Assembly (NCBI GenBank): GCA_001244265.2
Contig: CDLV01000006.1
Location: 2,852,001 to 2,909,332, forward strand
Direction: 5' to 3'
DNA: 57,332 nt
Source of the DNA: Microbotryum violaceum
Taxonomy: Eukaryota
Shown here: piece after piece, positions 1,547 to 44,882 of the stretch
Numbering within the stretch: the first letter of the stretch is position 1
How the letters are laid out: each line of letters starts with the position of its first letter
Program-made: the position numbers and the translations under genes
Notes under the pieces: model-generated
Databases searched by the model: none
What the model was told of the DNA's origin: nothing
The model's input: the letters and a program-made list of their open reading frames with translations, nothing else

Positions 1547-1736
1547 TGTTAGAAGCGGGGTCTGAGAGCCTAACTCTTTTCTATTAGCCTTGTTAATTCT
1601 TTATTCTGCGTGCGCGCCTATCTCTGTCTTTGCGTTTTTTTTCTTTTCTGGTCTTCTTCTCCACGCTATTCTCATCATCTCACTCGTGTATCTCGGAGCT
1701 GAGTCGTGGAGTACCTCTTGGTCCTTATCTGTAAAA
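1547..1736 (+). repeat. 5' LTR of the Copia element
   Basis: TGTTAGAAG...CTGTAAAA, roughly 94-95% identical to 4008-4200 by eye (about 9 substitutions plus a 3-bp indel). Confidence 0.95.
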
Positions 1737-1740
1737 GGTT

Positions 1741-2580
1741 ATGAGCTCAGCGAGCGAATCCGATTCCCACAATGGGGCGGGCAATCGCTTGTACCTCAAG
1801 GACACCAAAGGGTACAAGAGTTGGGCGTCAAAGGCGTATCTCAATTTACGAGGCGACGCACTATGGGACGTTGTTATCCGCTCGGTAGACTCCCTCGTCG
1901 CGGACTATCGGTCCACCCTCGTTTCCGCCAATGCAACTGCGTCCGTCGCGCCTGTTGAACCAACCTCCCCAGCCTTAGCGGGCTCCGGAGGGAGATCTGG
2001 TTCCGCGCCTTCAGCGGACGTCTTGCCCACTCTCACCAGCGTCCAAATTGCGGACAAAGTCGCGGCATTTCGCGATAAAGCCGGCCGTCGGAACGAGTTA
2101 GCATGCAAGTTCCTCGCCAATGCGCTTTCCGAAGAACAGATGGGCCATTGCGAACATCTCGACTCTGCGAAGGACACTTGGGACACGCTGAAAGGGATCC
2201 ACTCTCTCAGTCAATCGAGTCGTACCATGGATTTGCTCAGTGTTCTGATGCAACAATACACGGGTGATATCCCGTTCAAGGAGTTCTTCAACAAGGTCAA
2301 GATTACCATGATTGACTTCAAGAACCTCGATGCTCCGCTTCCGAACTGGTTGTTTGCAGCGATGCTTGTTCGCTCACATCTTGACCAGTACGACTCGATC
2401 GTTGGCAACCTCGCGTCCGATGTCGACATCCACATGGACTGGAACGCGTTCTATCCTAAGCTCCTCATGAACGTCGAGTTGGCCGAGTCTCGTAACAGGC
2501 AGAAGGCATCGCTATCCGATCGAATTGTTGATGATAGCAGCCTCGTCGCTCGTATCTCTACTACTGCGCCAAAGGACTAG
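1741..2580 (+). pseudogene. Copia gag (UBN2-like), ending in a stop just before a degenerate zinc knuckle
   Basis: ATG overlaps the PBS. YKSWASKAYLNLRGDALWDVV and SAKDTWDTLK are Copia gag-like. YCSRSKVHGH (broken CCHC) follows the TAG. Confidence 0.8.
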
Positions 2581-3006
2581 TCCAAGTTGTATTGTTCTCG
2601 CAGCAAGGTCCACGGTCACAAACGTGGTTGGCGTCTGTAGTAGAGATACGAGCGACGAGGCTGCTATCGTCAACAATTCGATCGGATAGCGATGCCTTCT
2701 GTCTGTTACGAGACTCGGCCAGCTCGACGTTCATAAGGAGCTTAGGATAGAACGCGTTCCAGTCGGATTACCTCCGATGGACGAAGAGGATGAGGACAAC
2801 GACAGGCCGGAGGACTTCCATGATGCAGAGGAATCTCTCGACGGCGAGGCGGAAGTCGCTCTCGCTCCTCGTGAAGGTTACGCGATCGTGCGTACTGGTC
2901 CAAACCCAGGCAAGTTTGAGAATGTCGATCGCTCCAACATCCTCCTGCTGGCTCTCGTCGTCGACATCAACCTCCCGACAAGGTTCTGCCCATCATTGCC
3001 GCTATC

Positions 3007-3903
3007 ATGGTCGATGTACTTGATAATCCACCTTTGTTCCACGACAAACTATCCTACGATGCCTACTGCGCTGCGGTGTTCGCCGAGGAAGACATCGAGA
3101 TCCCCAAGACCTTCGAGGAGGCTATGAAGTCACCGTATCGCAACCATTGGATTGAGGCCATGGTCTCGGAGCTCCTTCAATTCGATCATGATGGAGTCTT
3201 CCAGGAAGTCACGTGGCACGAAGGAATTCGGGTACTTGGCACGATCTGGGTCTACAATATCAAGCGCGATGCGAACGGGAAGATCATTCGTTTCAAAGCT
3301 CGCCTTGTTGCTCGAGGGTATATGACGGCCACTGCCGACGCCTGTCTCTACATCAAGCATTCGGGAACTTCGTTTGCTATCATCACTCTTTTCGTTGATG
3401 ATGGTCTCATCGCCTCCAATGATCAATCGTTCTTGGAGTCCGAGCTCGTTTCACTTCACAAGGCCTTCAAGCTCAAGCGTCTTGGTCTGGTGTCGTACTT
3501 CCTTGGCTTCGAGGTTCATCGCACCAAGGATCACATTCTCGTTCATCAGAGCAAGTACGTTTGGACCATGCTCGAGAAGTTCGACTTTGCCTCGCCCTCC
3601 AAGCGTCGTGCTTTCACGCCGATGGATGACCGTCCTTCGCTTCGAATCGATACAACTCCTTTTGCCGACATTCCAATGTACCAGTCTGCTGTGGGTTCTC
3701 TCCAATACGCTTCGACTCGATGCCGACCCGATATTGCGATCGCTGTGCGTGCCGTGGCTCAAAAGAACTCCTGTCCTAACGTCGACGATTGGGCTGCAGT
3801 CAAGCGTATCTTCCGCTATCTCAACAGTACTGTCGATTGGGGAATCCTGTATCGCAACAGCTACTCGGGTGATGATCTACTCCTACGCCTCCTTCGCCGA
3901 TGA
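3007..3903 (+). pseudogene. Copia reverse transcriptase (RVT_2) remnant
   Basis: PKTFEEAM, WVYNIKRD...FKARLVARGY, LFVDDGL, YQSAVGSLQY...RPDIA, VKRIFRYL. A large segment is deleted after ARGY. Protease, integrase and most of RNase H are absent. Confidence 0.92.
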
Positions 3904-4007
3904 TCCGCTGCGGATTTGATGACCAAGCCTGTGGGCCCTCAGCGCTTCGATGATCAACTCCGCGCACTTCTTGGAACGGTCTCGTTAGGCTCTTTGACCG
4001 GTGGGAG

Positions 4008-4200
4008 TGTTAGAAGTGGGGTCTGAGGGCCTAACTCTTTTCTATTAGCCTTGTTAATTCTTTAATCTGCGTGCGCGCCTAACTCTGTCTTTGCGTCTGT
4101 TTTCTTTGCTGGTCTTCTTCTCCACGCTACTAGTCTCATCATCTCACTCGTGTATCTCGGAGCTTAGTCGTGGAGTACCTCTTAGTCCTTATCTGTAAAA
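4008..4200 (+). repeat. 3' LTR of the Copia element
   Basis: Direct repeat of 1547-1736, followed by TSD CGTTA. Confidence 0.95.
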
Positions 4201-4337
4201 CGTTACCGTTAAAATGGGAACCGAACGACGACCGAGTTTGTTCGTCGAGGCCCTCGTGGCGATCAATTCGTTCTCGAGACCGCTCTTGCGCAAAGCCTCG
4301 GCGTTCAAGCTCGACTCGATATGGTCGTTCCGGGGAC

Positions 4338-4700
4338 TGTGGTACTCGGGATCCCGTCGGAGTCATTTCGGACATAGCGGACCGAGTTCAGAAGTCATTT
4401 CGGACAAAGTGGGCCGGGTTCAGGAGTCATTCCGGTTGAAGTGGGTTCGGGTCATTTTAGCGGGGTCGAGTTCCGGAGTCGTTTCGGTCGAAGCAGGGTC
4501 GAGTTTCGAGGGCCGAGTTCGGGAGTCAATGCAAGTTCCACCGGTTCGGGAAGGGTCAAGACGCCGGTTTCGGCAGAATTACCAGCGATTAAGCGGTCCC
4601 GGATAAACTCAGTACTCGGTGACTCGAGACTTGACTGTCAGCGACGAATCATGTGGCGGGATTTGAATGGAAGACCGGGCCGGATGCGCGGATGGAGAGG
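4338..4700 (+). repeat. Left inverted repeat with ~31-bp internal subrepeats
   Basis: 4530-4700 matches the reverse complement of 18427-18597 with 2 mismatches. The outer part is built of GAGTCATTTCGGACATAGCGGGCCGGGTTCAG-like units. Confidence 0.92.
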
Positions 4701-4985
4701 CTTTTTTGCTATGCACCGTTGAAGGGCGACGTGCACCGCGTCGTAGGCCTCACTCGCAGAAAGCGAAGTTTTGTTCACGTAGAGGGTGACGTAGAACAAG
4801 ATCGCCCGACCCAGCTCTCCAAAGCCCGCGAACATGACATCGGTGTTGCACTTGAGGAGCTCGACGCACAGTGGATTGTAACCGTCAAGTCGAGGTTCCA
4901 GACGCTTCAATTCGATCTTGCCTGTATCGATGTCAACGCTAGTCTCTGCTCGGATTGTCCCATTGATACGATAACGGCATGTATC

Positions 4986-5147
4986 TGTTGGAATCAACGA
5001 TGATCCCGAAATGATCAACAAAAGTAGAGAAAACGGCTGGACCAGGAGTCGAACCTGGGTCACTTCCATTACTCGGCTCGGAAAAGCTTTGACCTCTAAG
5101 CTATCCGGCCCCCGATATCAGTGCAAGGTCTACTAACACCTTCAACA
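4986..5147. mobile_element. Solo LTR (162 bp) carrying a tRNA-like cloverleaf, inserted in Helitron Rep
   Basis: TGTTGG...TCAACA ends, flanks GTATC/GTTTC (4 of 5 match). Removal restores ..PTDET-CRYRING... Direct copy at 18868-19023. Confidence 0.85.
5034..5110 (-). ncRNA. tRNA-like Pol III unit inside the LTR (aberrant 12-nt anticodon loop)
   Basis: GGCCGGA-TA-GCTT AGAGGTCA AAGC-T-TTTCC [GAGCCGAGTAAT] GGAAG-TGAC-CCAGG TTCGACT CCTGG-TCCAGCC, followed by TTTT. Confidence 0.7.
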
Positions 5148-7343
5148 GTTTCGTCCGTGGGAACCACGCCAGGTCTTTGATTCTTGATGCAGCTTGAGTT
5201 ATGAATGTGAGACTGGAACGCGTTGGCGAGATCAGCAATGTACTGGGGAAAATGCTCACTGTCCAAGGCCGGAGGTTTGCGTAGTGCCGGATGTGGCTTG
5301 TCAGGGGCTGTTGGGAGTGCTTTTTTGGGATCAGCTCCGAGTTCACGGTTCAGGTCCATATTCTGTGCAGTCTGTCCGGGATATGCTTGTTGCGTCAGTG
5401 ATTCGAGCCAGTTTACGAGGTCGCGTTCCGCGGTTGGCTCGGCCGTCAAATCCTTCCGAAGATCGTTTGGTGAAGGATGCCCCTCAAGCCAAATAAGCAT
5501 GTGCGCGTGTAGTGTTCCGCGCATCTGCGTTTCAACAACCCCGTAATGTGCTACATGTTTCCCGAATAATCCAGGTCGCTGATGTTTGTCGCCTGCTCGA
5601 ACTATGATCTTCAAGGATTGCTTGAGCGTAATATCGAACATTTCGGCAGCTGCTGCGGGATTGGGATTCGCTGCAACAATCTGCGCCCGTCGCTCTGCAG
5701 GATAGCCGAATGCGTCGAGAAGGTCCTCATCAAGGTTGATTTTGCATCCCGCCAGTTTCAGTAGTAAGGGTGAGTGTAAATCTGCCGGGTTGACGGTGAC
5801 GAAGAGGTGTACATACCGAAGGCGTTGACGTATCCGCGGATCTCATTCCTCATGTCGAGCATCTGCGCAGTTGTGCCGTGAATTTTGTTTCCAACACTTT
5901 GCAATTCCGTCGGAATACGCTCGATATGCTTATCTGCTTCTGTTGTTGCCTTGTACCTTTTCGTGTCCTTGGATTTTTTGATCATTTCGGACACAACATC
6001 CATGTCGATTTCGAGCAGTGCTGTTGCGATTCGCGCCACCTTCTCTTCGGGGACCCGAAAAGCGAGTTGGCGAAACACGTCTGGTCGGCGGAGCATGTTC
6101 GAGACGATGCCAAATGGGAAAGACGGGTCGCATCGAAAATCGCTGTCGTACAGATTGAGCCAATGCTTGACTTGCTCGTCCAGAGAAATTTTACGTCGCG
6201 CTCGACACATAAACTGATGAGACCAAATGGATCGAGGTGTGGCCACAGCTTCGATAGCAGGAGCTTATCTGAAGATTCCCACAAAGGGGTGTCGCCTGTC
6301 GGAATGACATAGGTCGGCTTGTCTTGGTTAAACTAACGGAGAGCTTTCTCAAAGAACTGCCATGAGTGGATTGGTTCGTCGGTAGGGGATGGCCGCACAT
6401 GGACGTGTTCGAAGACTGGTTCATCAGAGTCGTTATGCGTTGTTGCGTAGCCTTCAAAGAGCGATGATGTTGGTTCCACTGTCTCTGCGGTCACCACATT
6501 CGTCAAAACTACGTCGGGCACGAGACCGTCTCCATCCGCGATTTGTTGATCCGATACTTGGGGAGCAACCGGGACGGAAGCCGAAGTCGAACTGGAAGCT
6601 GAAACCGCCGTAGAAGCTGGAGGTCTGGTCGAGCGCACCGGAACTGCGTCGAACGAGCTGTGCAAGTCTTTCGCCATCAAAGGAGACGGCAGAGTACGTC
6701 GGATTCTTGCTTTCGTTGGTCAACCACCTAAGCATCTTTTGGATTCGATTCTGCTTCACGATCATGGGTCGACACTTGTCCAGCTTCGCAAGATTGGGGC
6801 TCCCTCCGCAGAATGCACACACTGTCAGCGAGTTCCTCGAATGACATGGGCAGTGCATCCGTGAACGAAGCGGTGTTTTGGCTTGAGATGAGGGTGTTTC
6901 CGCGCGTAAGTTCTTGTTGAGCTTTGGGATATCCGAAACGAGTTAGCTTGTACACGATCTTGTAGGTTCTGGCGCGCGCAGTGACGAGGTGCTCAAGCTG
7001 ACTCGCGTTGGAGAAGCATTCTCGGACATCAGCGGAGACCATCGATCCGGTCCGCTCGACAGCGCTCGACAGGCACGCCTTGACGCGGCTTGGCCTCTTG
7101 CCTGAGTCGTCGCTTCGTCGCTGCACACAACATAGTCACCACCGACATCCGTGATCAGCGTGTAGCCCTCCTAATTCTGCTCACGTAGACCAATCCAGTT
7201 TGTCAGAGTACGCTCATGTGAGTCACGTCCACCCGCCGTCGCGGAAAGTTCCAATTGCCATGTCTCGAACTTCGAACATTGACGAGCTCGTTGCGCCGTG
7301 TACAGCATTCAACAGTTCGCTTCGCCTTCCCCTCGTACTCATA

Positions 7344-9756
7344 ATGTCCCACGCTCAACCCGGCGAAAGCCGCAGCAGTGCTGAACACTGCACTGAACAG
7401 CGAACGCCCCCCGACTCTCCCAGTACGAGTCAGCACACCGACAGCTCGCCTTCGACAAGCCCGTCGTTCAAGTTCGACTCGCCCCGCGCGCATCCACCGC
7501 CGGGTCGGCCACTTGGTCCTCGCCCCCACCGCAATGGGACGATAAGTCTCAGTCGCATGGGTCCGACCAAGAAGCAACGTCAGCGCCCAAAGCAGCGTCG
7601 GCCACGTCGACCCCGGCTCGAAGCGACACCAAGCCACCCCCGTTCGTCGTGTCAGTCGCGTGACTAGGCTCAGGTCTCTGGGCTCTTCACCTGGCGAGAG
7701 CAATGACGGAGACCGCGAGATCGAATGGGCGGGATTGGCGCACTTTTTCCTCGCGCCGTTGACCGACGACATTGACACAACCGTGGTCCCAGAGATCGTG
7801 TGGGAAGACGGAAAGCCAACGTTGGTGAGTGCGCGCAGGGCACATGATGACCATCGGTCTCTGGTGAACGTGCCCGAACTGAGTTTGACCACCGAGTGAA
7901 CAGAAGAGTCGAGGTCGCTTGCTGAGCTTCCAAGAAGACAACAAAAGCGTCGACGTTTATGATCCTTCGATTATCCCGGACGTTGTCCTCCTAACTCGCG
8001 AAGCATTCGAGGCCGACCCAAGTCTGGTAGCTACCTGGACATCGGACGACGAGGACGCCTACGATGATACGCGGTCGTGGTCACAAGTTGCTGCCGTTGC
8101 CGAAATTAGCAGGACGTCGAATATCGATCCATCCGACTCCGACTCGGATATTGTGTCCGGCCCTGAGCGCCTACGAGAATCCCTGTTCGAGCTCGTCTCG
8201 CAATCGCTCCGATCTCACGCGTTCGGGTTCGGCCTCTGTGACAACCTTCTCGAGATCGTCCTCCATACTCCAAGTGGTCGTTTTTGCAGCCCCACAATCT
8301 ACTGTACCGAAGCGAATGGTGACCTTGCAACCTTTCTGACGAGACTGCTCAGCCTGAGCGATCGCGAGCTCGGCATCATCTCCTCATTGCGTGACCGTGT
8401 CGGTTCGACCTCGTTCTCGTTCCCGTCGTGCGAGCTTCCATCTCGGGTTCCGCTGTTTGAGAAGCGTCTCTCGGGCTCCCCTCGTCTCGAAGACATCAGA
8501 ATCCTCGAAACACTCTCCAAGTCCGACTCCATCTTTGGACGTCACACCTCGGCCTATCGCGTTTCCGTCGGCGGCGAAAGTTCGACTGCGCACACCGAGT
8601 ACGCGATGACGGTCTCGTTCGTCGAAGAAGCTCGCTGCGACGAACACGATCGCATCCGTCTCGCCATCACCAACGCGTTACCGAGGATCGACAAGGGCTC
8701 ACCAACATCGTCGACGTGTATCGCGAGAGTGACTTTGTCGTCGTCCCCCACTTTCTCCCTGCGGATCTCCCCTTCAGAGCGTGGGGTCTCAAGCCGCGCG
8801 CGATGGAGGTGACGTTCCATGAACACTGCTTCGAGCCAATCTGCGTCGTCGATTCGACCGAAGCGTTGGCACGCGTTATTCTGGGGGCCGTTCAAGGTAT
8901 GGGCGCTCAATTACTTTCTGTGATATGCTTTCCTCGCGCCCTTGGCTGATCATGGTGGCATCTATCCACTGCAGGCCTAGGCAGTCTTTACCGCCTACGC
9001 ATCCTTCATCGGGACGTTTCCGCTTCGAACGTCATGGTCGCATCTGACGGCAACGGGGTGTTGGTCGACTACGACACTGCGGTGTTCATGGACGGGCCAG
9101 AGGGGGAAGCCGAACGCAAGAAAAATGTTGTGAGTATCTTTCCCAGATTGATCAAGGGTGCCTCTGCCAAGTCCGCCGTACTCTACCGTTGCTGATGATT
9201 CCCGAGGGACGGACAACGCCAGGGGACGCTTGCATATCGCGCGCGGGAGCTGGTGGAGGAGTACAAAACGCGACCAACGTTTCTTCATCAGCCATGGCAT
9301 GATATCGAATCACTCGTCTACGTGACAATGTTTGCCGTATTCATACAGCCTAATGGACCCGACGACTCGAGCGAGCTTTCGGACAAGACCAGAGGCATTT
9401 GGCAGCTGTGGAATTCGAAATTGGGCGCCGTCGACTCGAAGACGATGCTCTTCCTAGCGCCTTGGGGACCGCAAGAGTTGTTCGAGCCCTTCAAGGAGTT
9501 CTGGAAGGAGGATCTGGCTACGCTCGTCCAGACGGTCGCCAAGTACTGCGGCCTGGGTGTGCCGCGCACTCCGTGGGCTACGCGGTTCGACGAAACCGCC
9601 ATCCTCGAACCTCGTTGGGCAAGTGGCGAATTCACGCACGGCCAGTTGGCCTCGAACTTGTTAGCGTTGCTCGTGAGCATCGGGCAGAGGAACGCGCCGG
9701 AGAGTGAACCGCCTAGAGTTCCCAGGGATAGAGCAGGACGGGTGCTGTTTTTGTAG
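7344..9756 (+). pseudogene. FunK1-type fungal protein kinase with N-terminal REase-like domain (gene A); multi-exon, frameshifted
   Basis: Spliced sequence gives LHRDVSASNVM..VLVDYDTA..GTLAYRA..HQPWHDIESLVYV. N-domain IPDVV..WSQVAAVAEIS. Introns at 7825-7903, 8897-8974 and about 9130-9222. Frameshift near 8682 and probably further ones in the 5' exon. Confidence 0.8.
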
Positions 9757-10720
9757 TGTAAGCGTTTGAATGAAATTGCAGTGCTTTTTGACAGAGATAC
9801 CTGTGTGCCGAGGACCATTGGCATGATTCGCCTCAGTCGCTGGCAGCTCGCCCTTCATCTCCTGCGGGCGCCCCTGCGGGAGCACCTGCGCTGCGAGAGG
9901 GGAGCCCGGGAAGCTCGGAGACGAGAGACGACCCACACGAAAATGCCCATTCCTCCGGCCACCCGTAAGCTTTTACCCATGCTCTCCTCGAACAGAACGA
10001 GTCTTTCGGTCGCGGTTCGAGCCCTTTGGGAGAAAGCCGACCGTCTTTCCGATCACATCTGGTCTGGTGGAGGAGTCCTTTTTGTTGTTGTTTTGAGACT
10101 CCGCACGGTTACTGTGGAGTGGAAGACGACTGTTGCAATCAGCTCTTAGAATCCTTGCCAGAACCTCTGCGTGTCATTATACATCGTGACCCGCACAGGC
10201 TGGGAAAGTTCAGGATTAAGGTGAGGGCTCCTGTGGGCAGAAGGTATGGGCGCCGCGCAACAGAGGCGCTGCTCGGGGCTCTGAACCGGACCAAACCCTT
10301 TGGTGACCTTGGTCGCCCCGTTCCTCCTCGCCCCATGTGCTTTCGGAAAGTGAAATTAAGTTCCTACGATCAGTCACTGCGATCAACCGTCAAGACGTTG
10401 CGTCAAGTATTCATCACGACTAAAGAGCACCTTTGACAGCCATCCATCCTTCATCAAGATCTGACCTCTGGACAACGTCCGTGGGGCTCAGTGAGCGACC
10501 AGAGGTCGAATTGCCAACAAAGCTTGTCATTATATGGTTGCATCGTCCTTCAGTCTACGTATAGTACCTGTTATGGTACTTCATCTTGAGCCTCTAGCGA
10601 CTTCATGAATCCCTTCAGCACCTCATTTGTCTTACCCTTTTTTAGTCACTATTAGCTCTTTATTATCTCCGCTTATCATCCCTTCCTAGTCCTTCTGGAG
10701 TTTGTCCCTTAGCCTTTGGC

Positions 10721-10842
10721 CACTCTGTTCTCGTCCCGTTCCATTGGACTGAGTCGTGGTCTTCATCAGGTATGCATTCTCTGGAATCCTACTCACTCTG
10801 TTCTCGTCCCGTTCCATTGGACTGAGTCGTGGTCTTCATCAG
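10721..10842. repeat. Exact 49-bp direct repeat, 2 copies, 24-bp spacer
   Basis: CACTCTGTTCTCGTCCCGTTCCATTGGACTGAGTCGTGGTCTTCATCAG at 10721-10769 and 10794-10842. Confidence 0.95.
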
Positions 10843-10940
10843 TTACCACATGAGAACATTTTTACAATAAAGCTTCCCCTGTGCCTTGGACCAAATCATA
10901 CAAGGCAGAGCCTTCAGAACCTTCAAAAACGACAAACACC

Positions 10941-13224
10941 CTAAAGACGAGCCTTGAAACGTTTCAGCTCGGCAGACAGTCGGTCGAGGCTGCAGTTGCC
11001 GCCAGGTCCCCATTGGCGCCGCATCCCAAGGTCTTGCTCGCGTAGGCGCACGGATGTAATATCGCCAGCGGGTCCTCGGAGGCAGCAATACCTGCTCATA
11101 ATCTCGAAAAGGCTTGGAAGATCGGCCCAGAAAGGTGGATACATGAGGTCGAAGGTAGCGTTGGCTAAGTTGTCGTAGTGCGAGCTTTTCGAGTAGATGG
11201 CGATCTGCGACTTTTCTTGATTCCACCTGGTCCACAGCTCGCAAGCTTCCACCGACATGTCCATCGAGCTGCTGGGTCCCCCGGGGCGCTTGCACACCAC
11301 GAACTGGTTGATGTTTGTCAAAGCCTCGACAAGATGCCAGATTTCATGGGGTACGATAGACTGTCGACCTCCTTCGTCCGGATACCCTCCCTTAGCCAGG
11401 AAAGCCAAGACGCCCTGCGTAGAGAGCCGGGCAGTCGTCAGTCACCTTGAACCGGCCCTGCTATACAGTCGAATACGTACTGCACTTTCCGCAAGTTCCG
11501 ACGCCGCAGACGCACTGCCTAGATCCACCATCCCGTCGAGGTCCACAAGGACACCTTGTCGGGCTCGATTAATCATGAGACTGCCATCGGAAAACTGACG
11601 AGGCAGGAGACCGTGCTCGCACAAGAATCGTAGTCCTAGGTTAACCCGCATCGGACTCCGCAGTCAGGACAAGACGCGCATTCCTCCAGTTCGACCGATC
11701 CAATTACTCACCTTCGACTATTCCCATGTTGAATTCGACCATTGCGGAGGTCGATTCGATTTCCAAAACGGTGCGGTACAGGCCTTCAAAGATTTCACAC
11801 TGCAGTGTGCGGGGGACAAAGTTCATGTCCCCACTGCGCCCGATCGGAGGGGGTACGTTCCAGAAGTTGTCGACGTCGACGAAGGCAATCTTGCGAATGG
11901 CAATGGACCTGACGTCGTCGGGGTTGCACACTGCAGTGTGAAATCTTTGAAGGCCTGTACCGCACCGTTTGGGGTTAAGTCGAACAAGGCCGTCGAGCCG
12001 CTGGGTGCGCTGGATTTCGTCTCGATCGGGGAACGCGATTCGCACCGTGTGCTGAGACAACGGGGTGGGTTGACGATCACTGACGAACGTCGGTTGGGTC
12101 GCTCGGCACAAATCGCTCATTTTTTGGTCAAGTTCGATGCGGTAGACTGAAGGGCGTGCCCCAAACATCGCTGGATGGATGAGTTGTTGGCACAAGAGCT
12201 TGATGCTCGGCGGTCGGGAGATCGGCGGGACCGGAGGGAACCCCTGGGGCGGGAGGCGGCCCATGTTGAGCTCGCAGGGGAACAGTGCGGCGTACGCGAT
12301 CGCTCCAAGGGTGTCAAGATCGTGTCGGAGAAAGCGCACGATCAGACGCTTGAGCGACGCTAGCCCAGACTCGCTCGCACAGTCGATGGGCTCCGAACGG
12401 ACCATGCCTGAGGGTGTGTGGATGTAAACCCGCAGCTTGCTGCCGCAAAGCGTGAAGGCAAAGACCCATTTCCGGATCGGCTTGGTGGACGTCGCTCGGT
12501 AGAACCTACGGTAGGCCTGGTCTCGCGCCTCTACCTTCTTCTCGGGATTGGACTTGAATTCGCCAAAGACGAGAACGTCGTCGACATTACGCTCATCGAT
12601 CAAGGTGGAGCCGGTCGTTAGAGCAAGCGCATCCCAGACCTTGTCGACTCTCTCCCATGACCGGACCTTGCCTGGCGTTGACGCGCCTGGGAAGAGCAGA
12701 ACCACGTCGGCGCAGTGATCTTTCGAGCGCACTTGCCCGGCCGAGGTGGTGACGATTGCGTTCGAGCTCCCACAGACGACCAAGCACCGATCGATCTCCG
12801 CCTGGGGTGTCAAGAGGTCACTTGTGAGCACTCATTCTTTGGGTTTCCACCAATGAAGGAGTCTACGACATACCTCCTCCTTGATTTGCTCGGTGATTCA
12901 TTTCACAAAGATGCCCATTCCCTTCTCCGTGCCCCAGTGCGCTCCTTCGACTTCCGTCGGCCAACGGATGGCCTCCACCTGGGGGTCAATAACCGAGTCG
13001 GCCTCCTCGAGGTATGCTTGGAGCGCCTTCGAGCTCTCCACCCTTCCTTGTACCTCTGTCTTGATCCTCTGGTCCGTCGCAGTTGCCAAATTTGTGGCCG
13101 TGTTGAGTGCTGCCATTTCGACAAGTTTTACTGGCACGACCGGCGGCAGGCGCGGCGGAGCAGGCTTGGTCCTTCGCTGCGGTGCCACTGGGAGGAGTTG
13201 AACGGAGGAGTTGGCGGGCCTCAT
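10941..13224 (-). pseudogene. FunK1-type REase + pseudokinase (gene B); four exons, one in-frame TGA
   Basis: HCADVVL..FGEFKS..RDQA (PD-ExK-like) and FAFTLCGSKLRVY. Kinase loop reads LLPRQFSDGSLM..VDLD, and subdomain IX reads WHLVEAL. Intron positions match gene A. TGA at 12898-12900 interrupts exon 1 (FVK*ITEQIKEE). Start codon uncertain. Confidence 0.8.
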
Positions 13225-14773
13225 TCAGATTTGAAGCCGGCCAAATTGACTCAGCAAACAAGTTGCACAACTTACTACGGGATCGATCAAGGCTTGAGTG
13301 ATCTTACTCGAGGACGACGACGTTCGCAGATACTCAATTCCTAGAGAGCAAGGTATTTCAGGGGCCAACGTTCGACGTCAGCTGTCTGGGTGCGAAGCTC
13401 CGCGCTTCAGCGGCGCAGGCCCCGAGCGCCGCGAATCGCAATCAGACGACGACTCACCAGCGGGATCGAGAATGATAGTTGCGGTGGGCAGGCGGAATAC
13501 ACCCTCAGAGAGTAGAACAAGCCAGAAGTCTGTAGTGCGTCGAAGCAGGGACGTTCTCGTCGTGATGTGGCAGAGGTGGAATGAACGGGAGGAGAGCAAA
13601 AGGCGAGTTTCAACCAACCCCACTTCACGCGCGCCGGGACGCGTAGCGGCGCGATCCGGCGGACCGAAATTGTAGGCAGTGCACGATCGAACAGCACCGC
13701 GAGGCTGTAGCATCGTAGCCTTGATGGACCGAGAAAAGATATAAGCCATTCAATCCACTCACAAAGTCCAATACGCTGCTCACTTCCGTGTCATTGGAAC
13801 AGACGGCGGAATGACACAGACTGGTCGGCCACCGCCGCCGCCAGATCATCGGGGAGCGGGCCAGCTCGTCTTCGAGATCCGGGCGGCGCTGCGTGCGAGC
13901 GTCCATTGCCGTCCAAGTCGACCGCACTGCACACGCCGCAAGCCGAGAGTGATGGGCAGCAGCAGCTCAAGGTTACTAACTTGGCAGTTGTTGCACGGTA
14001 TCGAACACTTGTCTCTCTGGTATCAGCCAGCCTGGCCCTGGCAGCCTCGTGCACGTCGCCTCTAGCTCGAGTCCGAGTCCGTGAGATGGCAGTGCTGCTG
14101 CTGCCCCTGCTGCTGCTCACCCGCGTTGATGCATTGTGACCGACGGCCTATAGGTGAGACCGATGTACGCTCTTCACAAAGATCTGAGCAAGTCTAAATG
14201 TTATTTGCAGTATACCTTCCAACGCTACTCTGTTTACACAATAATGTAGCACCCAGGTTCTGGTCCCACGACTGCACTCGACTCGCCGACTACTCAACGA
14301 TCGGAGTCGGCCTTGCGAAGTCCATCTCGTTGCTGTGGTGCCCCACACATAACGTCAGCATCAGTACACGGCACGTGATCGACCGAAAGCCTTTGACCTC
14401 TGTCACCCTTTGCTCACCAGAAGCAAGGTGGCTGTCATCAGGCTCAATTCAGAAAGAGGATACACTTCGGAGGCTTTACTGGGGAAACACATGCTGGAGC
14501 TGACACAAGGTTGCTCGCACGCACACGACGAGATCGTACAAGGCTTCATCAGAGCATGGTATTACGCGATCCCGAGACTTCATATCTGCTCAGATTCAAT
14601 TCGTCACATCAACCAATCCCTCCTTCGCCCGGTTTCTGTCGATCTCCATCCGCCGAAGCATCATCGTCCCTCCCTTGTATTCCAAAACACCGCCTCGTGT
14701 CGAAGCGGGCGGTATCGCCGCTGCCCTAGTCGCGCCTGTGTTCTCACGGGGGAGCAGATATCCCACAAATGAG

Positions 14774-16696
14774 TTAATTCCAAGGTGCCTCCGAAGCACC
14801 GGCAGCTCCTTGTCGATTCGGTGATGCTCCCGTTGCGGCTGTGCCTAGTTCTCCGCCTTGCCCTCCTCGGATTGCGCCCAGTCTTGCGGCAGCACCACCT
14901 CGCGCCCGCGATGTCGCCCTCAGAGCGAGCGTCGGTGTCGCAGGTGCGGCTGCTGGGGCAGGTGCAGGTGCAGGCGATGAAGGGGCAGAACCAAACGCGG
15001 CGGGAGTGGCGGTCGTATCAGGCAAAGGAACCCCCCCGTTCGCCTGGAGAAGTTCGTGCGCGACCTTTGAGCCAGACGTCGGACGCCTTGAGCTTGGTCT
15101 CGACCGCCTTCTTGAGCGCCGTCATCAGTGTGCCCTTTTTGATGCACTCTTCCTGGCATGTTGTTGCGCGTCTCCTGCAGCTGTGTCGCAACATGTGCAT
15201 CGTTCTCGGTCGCCTGCCTGGCAAGCGCTTCCGTCACCGCGGCTTGGATTGCTTGTTGTTGCGAAGCGAGTCGACCTGCTTCGAGCTCCTTGAGCTTGCC
15301 CACAAAGAGCGCATCGACATCGACCTTCGGTGCGAAAGCAGGTGCCGACGAAGTGGTAGCAGTGGCGGTAGCAGTCGCGATGGCGGCTTTAGTGGCGGCT
15401 TTCGCATCGGGTTGAGCTTGCGCACGTTCGGCTGAAAGACGCGTCGTGGTCTGCTGCTCTCAGATCTTTGCTTCCTCGTCGGTTCCAGTCTTGAGCTGCT
15501 CAAACTCGGCCTGTATTGCCGTCTCGGATGCCTCGAGCTGGGTCTTGACCTTGGCAAGCTGCTCCCCGAATCGCTTTTTCGCCCTGCATTGTCGACGGCG
15601 GTCAAAAGCGTTCCAGCAGCGGCGGCGGTAAATGTTGCAAGCGCTCGGGCGGCGACGAGTTCGCCGTGCAGAATTTCGAAAGCCTTGCTCAGCTCAACCG
15701 TAGTCGTCTCAATGGCGGTCGCAATCGCCGACTATCACTCCGCAGCAAGTCGAGCCTCCCTTGACCTCAGCGACCTGGGTTCGATCAACCTCATCGACGA
15801 CGGCAGCATCGCTAGGTCGAGGGCCAGCACCCGCGACGCACTCTTCGACGGCCTTGATAATCGTCTCCTGGTTGTCGGCTTCGAAAGTCTCCTCGACTTT
15901 GACGAGTTCGTCGGTGCGTGCCTGCAGGGCGGCAAGCTGCGCCTCGACCTGGGGCGCCTGTTGTCATTCAAGATCGGCTCCTCCCTTTCTTTGCAGTCCT
16001 GTTGATGCAAGTCCAATACCTGATCAGCAGATGCCGTGGGAATTGACTAAAAAAACACGCGGACGTTCAATAGGAAACTCACAGCGACCTGATCCTCCAA
16101 CATGTTCTTCTCCGCCTCGAGCGCAGTCAATCATTCGTCGGCTGACGTGCTGACGTCATTCTGGTGAGCTTCATGCATCGCGACCACCCGAACCTGGAAG
16201 GCCTTCGAGCGTTCCGACGTCCCGTTCGAGCTCTCGCGATGAACCTCGCCTTCGCCTCCGCGTCGGGCTGCATCGTCGCCTTATCCTGCTCGAGCTCCTG
16301 CAGCGGCCGCACAAGCGCCTCGACGTCGGCCTTGAGTTGTTAGACTTCGATCTTGAGTGTCAGCAGCGCTTCGGGGTCGATTCGCTTCATGAGCTCGGCG
16401 GAGTGCGTCGTCGAAGCCGATACGACCGGACCGGACCAGACTGGCGCTCCTCGGCGCACGCGGGGCGCAACCGCGTCGCTTTCGGTTTGCTTGCCGAGGT
16501 CGAGGTCGAGTCGGAAACCGACGATCTCCGTCTCGCGGGGCAAGAACGTGATGCCGCCGAATAGCTCGCCTGACGGGGATGCGGTCGTCGAGACGGCACC
16601 ATCAGTCGCGGCGTCGACCGCTTCGGTGGCGGCAGGGTCGGCATTGGGAGCGCCTATCGACGGCGACTCTTGCAGCAAAGCGGCCTGCACAGTCAT
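14774..16696 (-). pseudogene. Decayed Ala/Glu/Gln-rich coiled-coil protein gene
   Basis: Successive minus-strand coiled-coil-like ORFs (LLTLKIEV*QLKADVEALVRPLQELEQ; KLKELEAGRLASQQQAIQ) broken by stops and frameshifts. Confidence 0.45.
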
Positions 16697-16699
16697 TCA

Positions 16700-16931
16700 T
16701 TTCAGATACTGACGAGAAAGAGCGCTTCAACTCGCGAGGCCTTTGATCAAGTTTCAGCGTATAAGCCCCAGAGCGGGCAACGAGCACGCCGATGAGGCGG
16801 CCAAAGAGGCGACCAAAGCGACTGATGACGAGTGGATGAAGCGAGGCCTGGAGATCGAGCGACTCGACGCGATCCCAGTTATGGGGACGGCACTGCGTCA
16901 ACAAGGCAAAACGCGTGTCAGCCAGGTGTAG
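16700..16931 (+). pseudogene. RNase H fragment, probably from a non-LTR retrotransposon
   Basis: IKFQRISPRAGNEHADEAAKEAT matches the RNase H C-terminal GNExADxxAK motif. Confidence 0.5.
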
Positions 16932-17707
16932 GCGACGACTCTGCAACAAGGGCAAGACGGGCCCCACTTTCCCAAGCTCGACGACTCACCCGGGAGCTCG
17001 CCGCTTCAAGCTGCACCACAGGCAGCACCCCCGACGAACAGCCTCCTTCTTCGCTCAACTGCGTGCATGAAGATCGTCACCTGCGCACGACCTGTTTCGC
17101 CGCCGACCGACTCCATTCAACCAGCTGTTTTGCGAGCGGCGCGTCCAGCGCGGCGGAGACTCTGGAGCACGGTATCGAGCACTACCAGGGTCAGCATCGC
17201 GTTCTACCAAGAGGACAATGAGGAAGGACTTGCCTCCGGACGACGTTCGACTCTACGTCTCGAGCGTGGCGGCATCCCAACTCATGATCGCAGGCTTCTT
17301 CTCCTCGACAGGCGCATGCTCACGGTACGAGCTTCTATTGGTCCGGGAGACGAGCTCCGACAGAGCACCGAAATGAGAACGAGCCAGAAGATGCACGCAA
17401 CCTCTTCTGGTTACTGCAATGTTGGCAATCACCCGTGAGCCACGGCACGACGCTCTCGGGCCGACGCATTAGGAGGGTCGCGTCGACGGGTAGGGGAGGC
17501 CCCAGAAGGAGCCATCCGGATTGTTGAGAAAAGTAGAAAAAAGTTTGATCGAATCAAACAAGAGCTGTAGGATCGACGCCAGAGGCTGGTTGGCCGAAGC
17601 AAGAGAGAGCAACCGCCCTCCAGTGACCTCGACCAAGAGCGAGCGGAGGAGAGCCGGAGCCGCGAAAGCTGGGGGGGGGGGGCGGAACTGCAAGCGGCTC
17701 CAGTAGG

Positions 17708-18329
17708 CAGCATCTTAGCTGGTTCTCACTTTCTGCGTGTTTCAAGTCTCGTCTCTCGTCTCCAGTCTCCAGTCTCAGCGTTTCGTTCTCGTACTCGGTC
17801 TCTTTTCTCGGTTTGGGCCCTTTCCTTTCCCTGTCTCGCGGCCGTTCCGGTCGCTCTCTCGTTCTCGTCTCTCGTCTCCCTCCTCTTCGGTCTCGGTCCC
17901 ATCTTTTCCTTATCATTCCATATCATCTTTGATCGACCGCTTTGCTATACTATAGTTCTCATTAGACGATGCCGTTGCTGTTGATCCCGGCGCTTTTTTG
18001 GGCGAACCACCCGACATCGGCCGAAAGTCAAAGTACGACGTCTGTCCGACTTCCAACTGTACGTTCTTCCCTTCATTTGTCCTATGGTATAGCAAAGCGG
18101 TCGATCAAAGATGATATGGAATGATAAGGAAAAGATGGGACCGAGACCGAAGAGGAGGGAGACGAGAGACGAGAACGAGAGAGCGACCGGAACGGCCGCG
18201 AGACAGGGAAAGGAAAGGGCCCAAACCGAGAAAAGAGACCGAGTACGAGAACGAAACGCTGAGACTGGAGACTGGAGACGAGAGACGAGACTTGAAACAC
18301 GCAGAAAGTGAGAACCAGCTAAGATGCTG
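17708..18329. mobile_element. Foldback/MITE-like element: 248-bp inverted arms, 126-bp spacer
   Basis: 17708-17955 is the reverse complement of 18082-18329 (one mismatch seen). CAGCATC...GATGCTG ends. No clear TSD. Confidence 0.85.
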
Positions 18330-18411
18330 TATTGGATCCTAGAAGTGGTCTAGCTAAAAACAAGAAGCAAACTCCCCTCAAACGTTCCGACCATTCAAAC
18401 CGCTGCGCTCC

Positions 18412-18831
18412 TGTCATTCCCCTTCACCTCTCCATCCGCGCATCCGGCCCGGTCTTCCATTCAAATCCCGCCACATGATTCGTCGCTGACAGTCAAGTCT
18501 CGAGTCACCGAGTACTGAGTTTATCCGGGACCGCTTAATCGCTGAGAATTCTGCCGAAACCGGCGTCTTGACCCTTCCCGAACCGGTGGAACTTGCAACG
18601 ACCTCCGAACTCGGCCCTCGAAACGACTTCGGAACTCGACCCCGCTTCGATCGAAACGACTCCGCTACAACCACTGCTTCCGACGGGATCCCGAGTACCG
18701 CAGACCCCGCTAAAATGACGCGACCCCGCTACAAGCGAAATGACTCCTGACGTGGCCCGCTATGTCCGAAATGACTCCTGAACCCGGCCCGCTATGTCTG
18801 AAGTGACTTCGAAGGGATCCCGAGTACCACA
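18412..18831 (-). repeat. Right inverted repeat (may extend 15 bp further inward than the left copy, ending ...GAATGACA)
   Basis: Reverse complement of 4338-4700. Contains a second internal copy of the terminal motif at about 18682-18702. Confidence 0.9.
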
Positions 18832-18867
18832 GGACGACGAAAAGAAAGACGCGAAAGGGGAAAAGCT

Positions 18868-19023
18868 TGTTGGAATCAACGATGATCCCGAAATGATCAA
18901 CAAAAGAAGAAGAACGGCTGGACCAGGAGTCGAACCTGGGTCGCTTCCTTTAATCGGAAAAGCTTTGACCACTAAGCTATCCGGCCCCTGACATCAGTGC
19001 AAGGTCTACTAACACCTTCAACA
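18868..19023. mobile_element. Solo LTR (156 bp) carrying a tRNA-like cloverleaf
   Basis: TGTTGG...TCAACA ends with perfect 5-bp TSD AAGCT (18863-18867, 19024-19028). Same family as 4986-5147. Confidence 0.92.
18915..18986 (-). tRNA. tRNA-like gene inside the LTR, nominal anticodon TTA, non-canonical loop (probable pseudo-tRNA)
   Basis: GGCCGGA-TA-GCTT AGTGGTCA AAGC-T-TTTCC GATTAAA GGAAG-CGAC-CCAGG TTCGACT CCTGG-TCCAGCC-G. A box TAGCTTAGTGG and B box GGTTCGACTCC. One C-A mismatch in the acceptor stem, no U33. Confidence 0.7.
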
Positions 19024-19028
19024 AAGCT

Positions 19029-20255
19029 GTCGAATCTTCCCCCGATCCCGGCTTGGCGCGAAGAGGAAGAAGGCTCAACGGTCGATGCCGATCCCGCCGT
19101 ACCGAGAGAACGGATGTCCAAGTCCGAGATGAGAACACGACGCACGGAGTTGCTGTGGTCTCGGCCCGAGTCACTGGTCACATCTTGGGTCGTACCTCAT
19201 CTTGAAGGGAACGAACATGAGAGTACGATCATCGTTCTTTATGAGTGCTTGCGAAAGATGAAAGAAAGCGGAGCGGGGTGAAGCGATGCTGATGCCTCGA
19301 TGGTCCTGCGTGTTGAACAGGGGCTCAAACAACACTCGCGCGACATGAACATCCGAGAGCTATTGGGCGACCAATTCCCGACGACGAGATGGGTGATGCC
19401 GCAAGCACACAACCGACGTGTCACCGTCTTTGGACGACAACTAATCCCCGCTTGGTTCAACATCCGGGCCTTCCCTTTCAATTATGCGACTGATCAAGAT
19501 GACAAGGCGAAGTACGAGTCGGCACGGGAAGCCAATGCTGTTATTACGCACGAGCGGGTCGAGCTCATTCGCGCACTTCGTGCGCGAGGCGCACTCTCAT
19601 CGGAGGAATCTTCGTTGCTCGGCGCTAGGGGTCGTCGTTCGGCCGCGCAGATGCGCAAGCTCGTTTCAGGCGAATTTGGGACGCTCGCGGAGAAGGAGTG
19701 GGCGAACCAGAGGATCCTTCTTGGAGGGTTCTCGCAGGGAGGTGTGATGGCACTGTTGACGGGTCTCACAAACAGAGATCCGCTGGGTGGGGTGTTTGTG
19801 CTGAGTAGGTTCTTGCCGATGAGGGACATCTTGCCGCAGGTAAGTTCGAGTATCGAGCATCGAGAAGGATACCTCAGCTCGGTTTTGATGTCAAGAGGTG
19901 ATGTTTTATGTTCTTACTACAGTACACCAGAGATCTACACCAGAAGAACATGCCAATGTTTTGTCGTCAGCGCGGGTGACTCTTACATGCCGTGCGTCAC
20001 ACGGGGCACTCGACAAGCTCCTTTGACAGGGGCTTGAAAACTGACGTCACGTCGACGTCATAAATTAGATTCGAGGATGCGACTGCCTCGGTCGCTCTAC
20101 TACGAAGCAAAGAGCCGAAAGGCGCTGGTGAAGGTGGTGTGGGTTTGCACCATTTGCAGTGCTTGGCTTATCCGAATCTCTACCACGCCTGGTTCAGCGG
20201 CGAAGTGATCGATCTCGCGATTTGGATGAGCAAGGTGCTTCAGACTTACAAGTGA
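19029..20255 (+). pseudogene. Acyl-protein thioesterase / phospholipase-carboxylesterase-like gene, 5' part disrupted by insertions
   Basis: HESTIIVL..RWVMPQA..RVTVFG..IPAWFNI..RILLGGFSQGG (GxSxG). The first splice donor looks damaged. 3' boundary approximate. Confidence 0.75.
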
Positions 20256-43949: not shown

Positions 43950-44882
43950 TGAGCGCTGAGGAGTCGTTGCTATCGAACGGTGACAGGATCCGTCGAGGAG
44001 CTGCTGTCGTCGAAAGTTAACAGGAATTTCTGACGAGTCAGACGCTCAAGAGCTGTTGTCGTCGAAAGATGACAGTATTCGAGAGGAAGAGGACGCTGAG
44101 GAGCTGCTGTCGTCGAAGATTGGCAGAGATTTCTGAGGCATTAGATGCTCAAAGACCGCCGTTGTCGAAATATGACAGAATTTTCCCAAGAAGAGGACGT
44201 TCATGAGCTGCTGTCGTCGAAAGATGGCAGGATTTTATCAGGGAGAGCACGCTGAGGAGCTGCTGTCGTCGAAAAATCACAGGATTCTCTGAGGAAGACG
44301 ACACTGAGGAGCTGCTGTCGTCTGAAGTTTCTGAGGAATTAGATGCTCAAAAGCTCTGGTCCTCGAAAGATGACATGATTCGGGAGGAAACGGACGCTCA
44401 GGACCTGCTGTTGCCGAAAGATGACAGGATTCTCTGAGGTAGTGGACGATCAGGAGCTGCTGTCGTCGAAAATTATCAGGATCCGGGAGGAAGTTGACGC
44501 TCAGGAGCCGCTGTCGTTGAAAGAGGACAGGAGGACTTGGCCGCTGAGGAGCTGATGTCGTCGAAAAATGTCAGGATTTGAGAGGAAGTTGATGCTGATG
44601 AGCTGCTGTTGTCGAACGATGACAGAATTCTCTGAAGAAGACGACGCTGACGAGCTGTTGTCGTCGAAAAATGACAGGATTCTCTGAGGAAGTGGACGCT
44701 CGGGAGCTGCTGTCGTCGAACGATGATATAATTTTCTGAGGATGTGGATGCTGAGGAGCTGTTGTCGTCGAAAAATGACAGGATTCGGGAGTAAGTCGAC
44801 GCTCAGGAGCAGCTGTTCTCGAAAGATGACAGGATTCTCAGAGGAAGACGACGCTGATGATGAGCTGCTGTCGTCGAAAAAT
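43950..44882. repeat. Minisatellite, 51-52-bp unit, about 18 diverged copies
   Basis: Consensus approximately GCTGAGGAGCTGCTGTCGTCGAAAGATGACAGGATTCTCTGAGGAAGAGGAC. No long ORF spans it. Confidence 0.92.

What the first reader, a model, noticed from the sequence alone, without database searches (positions are those of the whole stretch)
18863..19028. LTR with a built-in tRNA-like Pol III gene (tRNA analogue of 5S-bearing Cassandra LTRs)
Seen: two independent ~160-bp insertions (4986-5147 and 18868-19023) with TGTTG/CAACA ends and 5-bp TSDs. Nearly half of each is a full cloverleaf with consensus A/B boxes and a downstream T4. Stems and boxes are nearly identical between copies, while the anticodon loop differs (7 vs 12 nt). 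Known: Cassandra TRIMs embed 5S/Pol III promoters in their LTRs. SINEs are tRNA-derived but lack TG..CA ends. Inference: a retroelement using a tRNA promoter, a TFIIIC barrier against silencing, or its own RT primer.
Basis: partly seen in the sequence, partly recalled or inferred. Interest (0 to 1): 0.78.

Follow-up and report, generated by a model that had tools for sequence, protein, structure and literature searches.

The report
Solo LTRs carrying a tRNA-like gene
Two short mobile-element remnants in this fungal DNA each carry a tRNA look-alike, and they fit a class of miniature retrotransposons (Helenus) that was described in 2024, so the idea is right but not new.

Summary
There are two copies, 4986-5147 (162 bp) and 18868-19023 (156 bp), 91% identical. 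Both have TGTTG..CAACA ends. The 5-bp target duplication is perfect for copy B (AAGCT) and 4 of 5 for copy A. Each carries, on the minus strand, a cloverleaf that Rfam scores as tRNA (51.1 and 46.5 bits; threshold 29), with consensus A and B boxes.

Contigs of four public runs show a multicopy family whose edges fall at 18868 and 19023. Copy A interrupts a Helitron reading frame, and removing 162+5 bp restores that frame.

[quoted passage not shown] This class is already published as Helenus (Kojima 2024, PMC10886601). It is known in fungi, makes 5-bp duplications, often survives as solo LTRs and is mobilised by Copia elements.

I could not obtain a two-LTR copy with PBS and PPT: no genome is held and four collection scans were blank. 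Membership therefore rests on the LTR features alone.

The tRNA-like part is probably not a working tRNA: it has G32 and A33, a C-A mismatch in the acceptor stem and a stop-reading anticodon. Two copies cannot show that it is under selection.

Verdict: real, ordinary, at most a new member of a known kind.

The parts
18868..19023 (-). Copy B of the unit, 156 bp, read as a solo LTR. In tRNA-sense orientation it runs TGTTGAAGG...GATTCCAACA.
   Evidence: Sequence and boundaries. Contigs in three runs diverge exactly at 18868: 9 in X1, 10 in X3 and 6 in X13. Contigs covering 18992 end about 32 letters further on, that is at or next to 19023.
18863..18867 (.). Left copy of the target-site duplication of copy B (AAGCT).
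   Evidence: AAGCT on both sides, 5 of 5.
19024..19028 (.). Right copy of the target-site duplication of copy B (AAGCT).
18915..18986 (-). tRNA-like cloverleaf of copy B, 72 nt. Anticodon loop is GATTAAA (UUA, stop-reading; G32, A33).
   Evidence: Rfam tRNA 51.1 bits. ARAGORN calls tRNA-Stop(tta). 20 of 21 pairs are standard, with a C-A mismatch at pair 4:68 in the numbering of the 72-nt sequence.
18968..18979 (-). A-box region of copy B (TAGCTTAGTGGT, tRNA-like positions 8-19).
   Evidence: Agreement with the box A consensus is from recall, and from the TRGCY/YGG description in PMC10886601 section 3.5.
18926..18936 (-). B box of copy B (GGTTCGACTCC).
   Evidence: GGTTC is the conserved box B core in Helenus.
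18902..18905 (-). T4 run 10 nt downstream of the tRNA-like part of copy B. A possible weak Pol III stop.
   Evidence: element positions 119-122.
4986..5147 (-). Copy A of the unit, 162 bp, read as a solo LTR inserted in a Helitron reading frame.
   Evidence: Helitron_like_N at 5096-5842 on the minus strand, E = 2.1e-17. Removing 167 bp joins open stretches of 230 and 115 codons in one frame.
4981..4985 (.). Left copy of the target-site duplication of copy A (GTATC).
   Evidence: GTATC against GTTTC, 4 of 5.
5148..5152 (.). Right copy of the target-site duplication of copy A (GTTTC).
5034..5110 (-). tRNA-like cloverleaf of copy A, 77 nt. The anticodon loop is enlarged to 12 nt by a CCGAG tandem duplication.
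   Evidence: Rfam tRNA 46.5 bits; ARAGORN.
5020..5033 (-). Two T4 runs just after the tRNA-like part of copy A (5030-5033 and 5020-5023).
   Evidence: element positions 115-118 and 125-128.

Best explanation
The two units are solo LTRs. A solo LTR is what LTR-LTR recombination leaves behind. They come from a small non-autonomous LTR retrotransposon whose LTR contains a tRNA-derived sequence with an intact internal Pol III promoter (A and B boxes). That makes it a Helenus-type element ('TRIMp3' in Kojima 2024).

Shown here:
- Both units are independent insertions of one multicopy family.
- They have retroviral-integrase-type ends (TG..CA) and 5-bp target duplications.
- Nearly half of each unit is a tRNA-like cloverleaf.

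Inferred by analogy with the published class:
- The full element is LTR-PBS-short internal part-PPT-LTR.
- It encodes nothing and is copied in trans by a Copia-type element. Copia elements make 5-bp duplications, and one Copia-derived element lies in this window.
- The tRNA-like part serves the element as a Pol III promoter, and perhaps as a TFIIIC-binding site, rather than as a decoding tRNA. Its anticodon loop is non-canonical (G32, A33; anticodon UUA), its acceptor stem has a C-A mismatch, and in copy A the loop is broken by a 5-nt duplication.

A T4 run lies inside the tRNA-like body as well as after it. So either T4 does not stop Pol III well in this fungus, which would allow the read-through into the element that the promoter model needs, or no full-length tRNA-like RNA is made.
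For: (1) Ends and duplications: TGTTG..CAACA, AAGCT/AAGCT (5 of 5) and GTATC/GTTTC (4 of 5).

(2) Multicopy with sharp edges. Contigs with unlike left flanks diverge exactly at 18868 in X1 (9 contigs), X3 (10) and X13 (6), with consensus agreement 0.43-0.48. None is among the rows shown for X2. Contigs covering 18992 end about 32 letters on, at or next to 19023. Summed contig depth over the unit is 2697-6378 in X1, against about 70 for neighbouring single-copy contigs; this is only a rough sign, as the tool warns.

(3) Independent insertions. Copy A lies in a Helitron_like_N reading frame, and removing 162+5 bp joins 230+115 open codons in one frame. Removing 162, 165, 166 or 168 bp does not. 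Copy B lies 35 bp beyond the end of a Helitron-related repeat, in the opposite orientation relative to that repeat. One X2 contig joins the unit's end (19023) to a third place in that repeat family (table 5c).

(4) tRNA-like part: Rfam 51.1 and 46.5 bits; A- and B-box sequences.

(5) The class exists in print with these properties. [quoted passage not shown] Many survive as solo LTRs flanked by 5-bp duplications, and some families keep no full-length copy. They are mobilised by Copia, and many are predicted as suppressor tRNAs or fail isotype checks (PMC10886601, sections 3.1-3.6 and 4).

(6) A Copia-derived element in the same window (1547-4200) has gag and RVT_2 domains, 190/193-bp LTRs and a perfect 5-bp duplication (CGTTA). 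GGTTATGAGC sits right after its 5' LTR. By recall that is the anticodon-loop initiator-tRNA type of PBS, which the paper says dominates in fungal Helenus and its Copia partners.
Against: No two-LTR copy, PBS or PPT of this family was seen. The window holds only the 2 units and no genome is held. Scans for a 23-mer and a 22-mer of the unit found 0 matches in metagenome contigs, and the 23-mer found 0 in prokaryote genome contigs and 0 in viral contigs.

The sense of the LTR relative to the tRNA-like part is therefore unknown. If the tRNA-like part is antisense to the element's RNA, the promoter model fails.

The flanks of the 9-10 other copies show no shared PBS-like or PPT-like consensus, as expected if most are solo LTRs, but this is no positive support.

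I could not compare the unit with the published Helenus consensus sequences, because supplements are closed and Repbase is not on hand.

Conservation of the tRNA-like stems over the rest is not significant with two copies (p = 0.076).
Confidence: 0.72

Rival explanations
1. The units are LTRs, but of a longer LTR retrotransposon (autonomous, or a large non-coding derivative) that picked up a tRNA gene or SINE in its LTR. On this reading it is not a miniature TRIM, and the tRNA-like part may lie antisense and play no role in making the element's RNA.
For: Everything that supports an LTR fits this equally well. The paper notes that quite a few Repbase LTRs contain tRNA-like stretches and that only some are TRIMs (section 3.1). 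The + strand reading of the unit has no T4 run at all, while the tRNA-sense reading has 2-3.
Against: 156-162 bp is short for the LTR of an autonomous element. The one Copia-derived element in the window has unrelated 190-bp LTRs. No internal part was seen in either case.
Confidence: 0.13
2. The units are complete non-autonomous DNA transposons (MITE-like), moved by a transposase of the retroviral-integrase type such as Ginger, which also gives TG..CA ends and short duplications.
For: Each unit stands alone with a target duplication, and no second LTR was found.
Against: The terminal inverted repeat is only 5 bases (TGTTG/CAACA), as in LTRs, whereas MITEs usually have longer ones (sequence; the comparison is from recall). 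No matching transposase was seen among the 21 window reading frames that I scanned against Pfam; this covers only part of the window. The published class explains lone units as solo LTRs.
Confidence: 0.08
3. The units are tRNA-derived SINEs copied by a LINE from a Pol III transcript.
For: They have a tRNA-like head with A and B boxes, are short and are multicopy.
Against: 37 conserved bases precede the tRNA-like part, upstream of where Pol III would start. The ends are TG..CA. Both duplications are 5 bp. There is no A-rich or simple-repeat tail. T4 runs lie between the tRNA-like part and the 3' end.
Confidence: 0.03
4. They are ordinary tRNA genes with conserved flanks, duplicated with their surroundings.
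For: Rfam and ARAGORN call them tRNAs.
Against: Homology stops exactly at TG and CA and is flanked by duplications. One copy sits inside a Helitron reading frame. There are 9-10 unrelated flanks in other copies. G32/A33, a stop-reading anticodon and a broken loop in copy A argue against a working gene.
Confidence: 0.01

Closest known systems
Helenus (TRIMs with a tRNA-derived sequence in the LTRs; Kojima 2024, Biology 13:119, PMC10886601)
   Same: tRNA-like sequence with conserved A and B boxes inside a short LTR. The fungal members make 5-bp target duplications. Many are solo LTRs, and some families have no full-length copy left. The tRNA-like part is often predicted as a suppressor tRNA or fails as a real tRNA. 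The partners are Copia-type elements that use the anticodon loop of initiator tRNA as primer, and a Copia-derived element with such a PBS-like site lies in this window.
   Different: No two-LTR copy, PBS or PPT was seen for this family, and the orientation of the tRNA-like part in the LTR is unknown. I could not test sequence relatedness to any named Helenus family. The host is an unnamed fungus, so I cannot say whether it lies inside the reported range (Pucciniales, Agaricus, Coprinopsis, Amylostereum).
Cassandra (plant TRIMs with a 5S rRNA-derived Pol III unit in the LTRs)
   Same: A small-RNA gene with its internal Pol III promoter, followed by T runs, built into a short LTR of a non-coding LTR element (as described in the introduction of PMC10886601).
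   Different: Here the unit is tRNA-like, not 5S, and the host is a fungus, not a plant. The origin is independent. For Cassandra, transcription from the 5S part is reported; here nothing is known about transcripts.
tRNA-derived SINEs (SINE2)
   Same: tRNA-derived head with A and B boxes; short, multicopy, non-coding.
   Different: SINEs start at the tRNA head, end in a LINE-related or A-rich tail and make duplications of variable length. This unit has 37 bases before the tRNA-like part, TG..CA ends and 5-bp duplications.

Membership tests
Helenus (tRNA-bearing TRIM) | tRNA-derived sequence inside the LTR, with box A (TRGCY...YGG) and box B (GGTTC) kept | tested here: met
   Rfam tRNA 51.1 and 46.5 bits. 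TAGCT...TGG and GGTTCGACTCC in copy B. Copy A has AGG instead of TGG in box A.
Helenus (tRNA-bearing TRIM) | The repeat unit is an LTR: TG..CA ends, short target duplication, multicopy, dispersed | tested here: met
   TGTTG..CAACA; duplications 5 of 5 and 4 of 5. Unlike flanks at 18868 in 9, 10 and 6 contigs. Two different insertion contexts in the window.
Helenus (tRNA-bearing TRIM) | Two LTRs in direct orientation around a short internal part with PBS and PPT; whole element under about 1 kb (311-1263 bp in the paper) | not testable with these tools
   Only 2 lone units in the window and no genome held. Scans of metagenome contigs (two patterns), prokaryote genome contigs and viral contigs found 0 matches. 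Logan contigs break at the unit's ends. The paper accepts families known only from solo LTRs and fragments.
Helenus (tRNA-bearing TRIM) | 5-bp target duplication in fungal members (4 bp in animals) | tested here: met
Helenus (tRNA-bearing TRIM) | Sequence similarity to a named Helenus consensus (Repbase, Table S1) | not testable with these tools
   Supplements are closed and Repbase is not on hand.
Functional tRNA gene | Canonical anticodon loop (pyrimidine 32, U33, purine 37), fully paired acceptor stem, sense anticodon | tested here: not met
   Copy B has G32, A33, anticodon UUA and a C-A mismatch in the acceptor stem. Copy A has a 12-nt loop. The canonical rules are from recall.
tRNA-derived SINE | Starts at the tRNA head; 3' tail A-rich or LINE-like; variable duplications | tested here: not met
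   37 conserved bases lie upstream of the tRNA-like part, the 3' end is CAACA, and both duplications are 5 bp.

The most novel reading that the evidence does not exclude
This could be a Helenus-type family in a fungal lineage where none has been reported, and one that works differently from the published promoter model. Its LTR would keep a complete tRNA-like gene that is transcribed as a discrete small RNA with a stop-reading UUA anticodon, or that acts as a TFIIIC-bound boundary element. The element's own RNA would be made from the other strand or by Pol II. My data exclude none of this, because neither the orientation of the LTR nor any transcript was seen.
Probability: 0.12. Interest if true: 0.45.

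Novelty: new member of a known kind. Interest (0 to 1): 0.22.

Why it matters
It matters mostly for annotation. LTR remnants of this kind are called as tRNA genes by ARAGORN and Rfam. They inflate tRNA counts and create phantom suppressor tRNAs, as Kojima documented for rust fungi. If this host lies outside the reported range of Helenus, the family would modestly widen that range. It would also add a case in which the T4 runs inside and after the tRNA-like part bear on whether Pol III can make the element's full-length RNA. It opens no long-standing question.

Tried and rejected
1. Whole-genome search for further copies: no genome is held for this window.

2. Exact-pattern scans for the unit. 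A 23-mer from the non-tRNA 3' part found 0 in metagenome contigs, 0 in prokaryote genome contigs and 0 in viral contigs. A 22-mer from the T arm and acceptor found 0 in metagenome contigs. The prokaryote and viral collections hold no fungal genomes by design and metagenomes hold few, so these blanks say little.

3. Sequencing runs: 20 rows held part of a 701-base stretch, and no RNA holder was listed. Expression and CCA-tailed products therefore could not be examined.

4. Laying contigs of X1, X2, X3 and X13. The contigs break at the unit's ends, so the flanks of other copies on the 19023 side, and any LTR-internal junction, were not recoverable. Among the joints shown, none skips either unit, so no empty site was seen. 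However 21 joints, 392 loose ends and 670 differences were not shown.

5. I considered whether the repeat just left of copy B (18083-18867) is the element's internal part, because a purine-rich tract (GAAAGGGGAAAAG) abuts the unit like a PPT. I rejected this for three reasons. That repeat is related to the Helitron remnant beside copy A (18427-18832 against the reverse strand of 4337-4700, 82.6% over 407 columns). Its homology ends at 18832, 35 bp before the unit. And the two units lie on different sides and in opposite orientations relative to it. The X2 joint 19023-CTC-18680 is then a third insertion into another copy of that repeat, not an LTR-PBS junction.

6. Taxon of the host. Pfam shows a fungus (Nup120, four Pkinase_fungal fragments). 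The homologue search gave 13 unnamed relatives at 42% identity or less. No finer placement was made.

7. Earlier notes of this scan: 3 look-ups, nothing to show.

8. Selection on the tRNA-like stems: not significant with two copies.

Full report
**What is there**

The window holds two copies of one short unit: copy A at 4986-5147 (162 bp) and copy B at 18868-19023 (156 bp). They are 91.4% identical over 162 columns, and a sensitive blastn of the window finds no third copy. Homology starts exactly at TGTTG and stops exactly at CAACA. Copy B is flanked by AAGCT on both sides (5 of 5). Copy A is flanked by GTATC and GTTTC (4 of 5).

On the minus strand each unit holds a cloverleaf. Rfam's tRNA model scores it at 51.1 bits (18986-18915) and 46.5 bits (5110-5034), against a gathering score of 29. 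These are the only two Rfam matches in the window. ARAGORN calls the same two, as tRNA-Stop(tta) and tRNA-Gly(gcc), and no other tRNA. In tRNA sense the unit reads as follows:

- 37 bases,
- the tRNA-like part (72 or 77 nt),
- 47-48 bases that end in CCAACA.

The A-box region is TAGCTTAGTGGT and the B box is GGTTCGACTCC. In copy B 20 of 21 pairs are standard, with a C-A mismatch in the acceptor stem. One correction applies: the duplication of copy A is imperfect.

**Is the tRNA-like part a tRNA, and is it under constraint?**

- In copy B the anticodon loop is GATTAAA, which gives G32, A33 and anticodon UUA. By recall, working tRNAs have a pyrimidine at 32 and U at 33.
- In copy A a tandem duplication of CCGAG enlarges the loop to 12 nt.
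- The four substitutions between the copies inside the tRNA-like part all fall in unpaired positions: 0 of 42 stem positions and 4 of 30 unpaired.
- The non-tRNA parts are equally alike (2 of 37 and 3 of 48 columns differ), and the contrast is not significant (one-sided Fisher p = 0.076).
- Three family-wide variants are visible in the laid contigs. They fall at tRNA-like positions 38 and 17 (both unpaired) and 5 bases upstream of the tRNA-like part. However 670 further differences were not shown.

Two copies cannot show selection.

T4 runs follow the tRNA-like part, but a T4 also lies inside it at positions 26-29. The 'downstream terminator' is therefore weak evidence. If T4 stopped Pol III in this fungus, the tRNA-like RNA itself would be cut short.

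**Is it mobile, and of what kind?**

Contigs of four public runs were laid on 4500-19500.

- At 18868, contigs run on into unlike sequence on the left in X1 (9 contigs), X3 (10) and X13 (6). The consensus agreement of those flanks is only 0.43-0.48. No such row is among those shown for X2.
- Contigs that cover 18992 end about 32 letters further on, at or next to 19023. That is what a de Bruijn graph does at the end of a repeat.
- Summed depth over the unit in X1 is 2697-6378, against about 70 for neighbouring single-copy contigs. The tool warns that this is no copy number, so I take it only as 'many'.

Copy A lies inside a Helitron remnant. The minus-strand frame 5096-5842 matches Helitron_like_N (E = 2.1e-17), with weaker Helitron-associated matches further up. 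Removing the unit plus one duplication (167 bp) joins open stretches of 230 and 115 codons in one frame. Removing 162, 165, 166 or 168 bp does not.

Copy B lies 35 bp beyond the end of a repeat (18083-18832). Part of that repeat, 18427-18832, matches the reverse strand of 4337-4700 beside copy A at 82.6%. Relative to that repeat the two units lie on different sides and in opposite orientations, so they are independent insertions.

One X2 contig joins 19023 to a third point in that repeat family (table 5c).

TG..CA ends with a fixed 5-bp duplication point to a retroviral-type integrase; this is from recall of transposon classes. The anatomy rules out a SINE. Thirty-seven conserved bases lie upstream of the Pol III start, there is no tail, and the duplication length is fixed.

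**Comparison with what is known**

A literature search found Kojima 2024 (PMC10886601). I read its abstract, sections 2, 3 and 4, the figure legends and tables, and passages of the introduction. I could not see its supplements.

The paper defines Helenus as TRIMs with a tRNA-derived sequence in their LTRs, 'the twin brother of Cassandra'. It reports the following:

- 5-bp duplications in the fungal members.
- Families that survive only as solo LTRs and fragments.
- Conserved boxes A and B.
- Predicted tRNAs that mostly fail isotype checks or appear as suppressor tRNAs.
- Mobilisation by Copia elements.
- No complementarity between the LTR's tRNA-like sequence and the PBS.

A second search for 'Helenus/TRIMp3' found 6 papers (5 listed). 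From the listing alone, none appears to describe further fungal families.

Everything I could test here fits that class. The window also holds a Copia-derived element at 1547-4200. It has gag and RVT_2 domains, 190/193-bp LTRs and a perfect CGTTA duplication. GGTTATGAGC lies directly after its 5' LTR. By recall that is the anticodon-loop initiator-tRNA type of PBS. Its LTRs are unrelated to the unit.

**What is not shown**

No two-LTR copy, PBS or PPT of this family was obtained. No genome is held and four collection scans were blank. The contigs break at the unit's ends.

The orientation of the tRNA-like part relative to the element's RNA is therefore open, and with it the promoter model. No RNA run was listed.

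The host is a fungus (Nup120 and Pkinase_fungal domains). I could not place it further. I therefore cannot say whether it lies outside the reported host range of Helenus.

**Verdict**

I rate this a probable new member of a known kind, with low interest. The main practical point is that such LTR remnants are miscalled as tRNA genes.

Noticed in passing
window 17708-17955 and 18082-18329: A perfect inverted repeat: 248-nt arms, 100% complementary, 126 nt apart. The right arm is the start of the Helitron-related repeat that ends 35 bp before copy B. It could be a recent inverted duplication, a foldback structure or an assembly artefact.
   Followed up: partly
window 1547-4200: A Copia-derived, internally shortened LTR element. 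It has LTRs at 1547-1736 and 4008-4200 (about 92% alike), a CGTTA/CGTTA duplication, GGTTATGAGC right after the 5' LTR and GGTGGGAG before the 3' LTR. It carries a gag domain (1735-2580) and a partial RVT_2 (2920-3903). The LTRs end in AAAA, not CA.
   Followed up: partly
window about 4337-7000, minus strand: A Helitron remnant with DUF6570 at 6454-6942 and Helitron_like_N at 5096-6264. No helicase domain was found where expected. It is multicopy in the laid runs and is interrupted by copy A.
   Followed up: partly
window 49930-52196 and 54508-56769: A 2.27-kb direct repeat, 99.6% identical, with starts 4578 bp apart. It contains a 560-aa open frame (49946-51628) with no Pfam match. It may be a recent segmental duplication or the long terminal repeats of a large element.
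   Followed up: partly
window 43980-44872: A degenerate tandem array with a period of about 52 bp, 13 or more units at 60-89% identity.
   Followed up: no
window 18716-18808: A 31-32-bp tandem repeat of about 2.3 units inside the Helitron-related repeat, bracketed by two copies of CGAMGGGATCCCGAGTACCRCAG. Its unit number varies among the laid contigs.
   Followed up: no
window 7889-8812, 9199-9756, 11704-12831, 41007-42251: Four open frames or fragments of the fungal-specific kinase family Pkinase_fungal (PF17667) in one 57-kb window, in a transposon-rich stretch.
   Followed up: no
window 10518-10877: Contigs of X1, X2 and X3 skip 350 bp here (joints 10518-10869 and 10526-10877). This bin also has very high summed depth, which suggests a polymorphic insertion of another repeat.
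   Followed up: no
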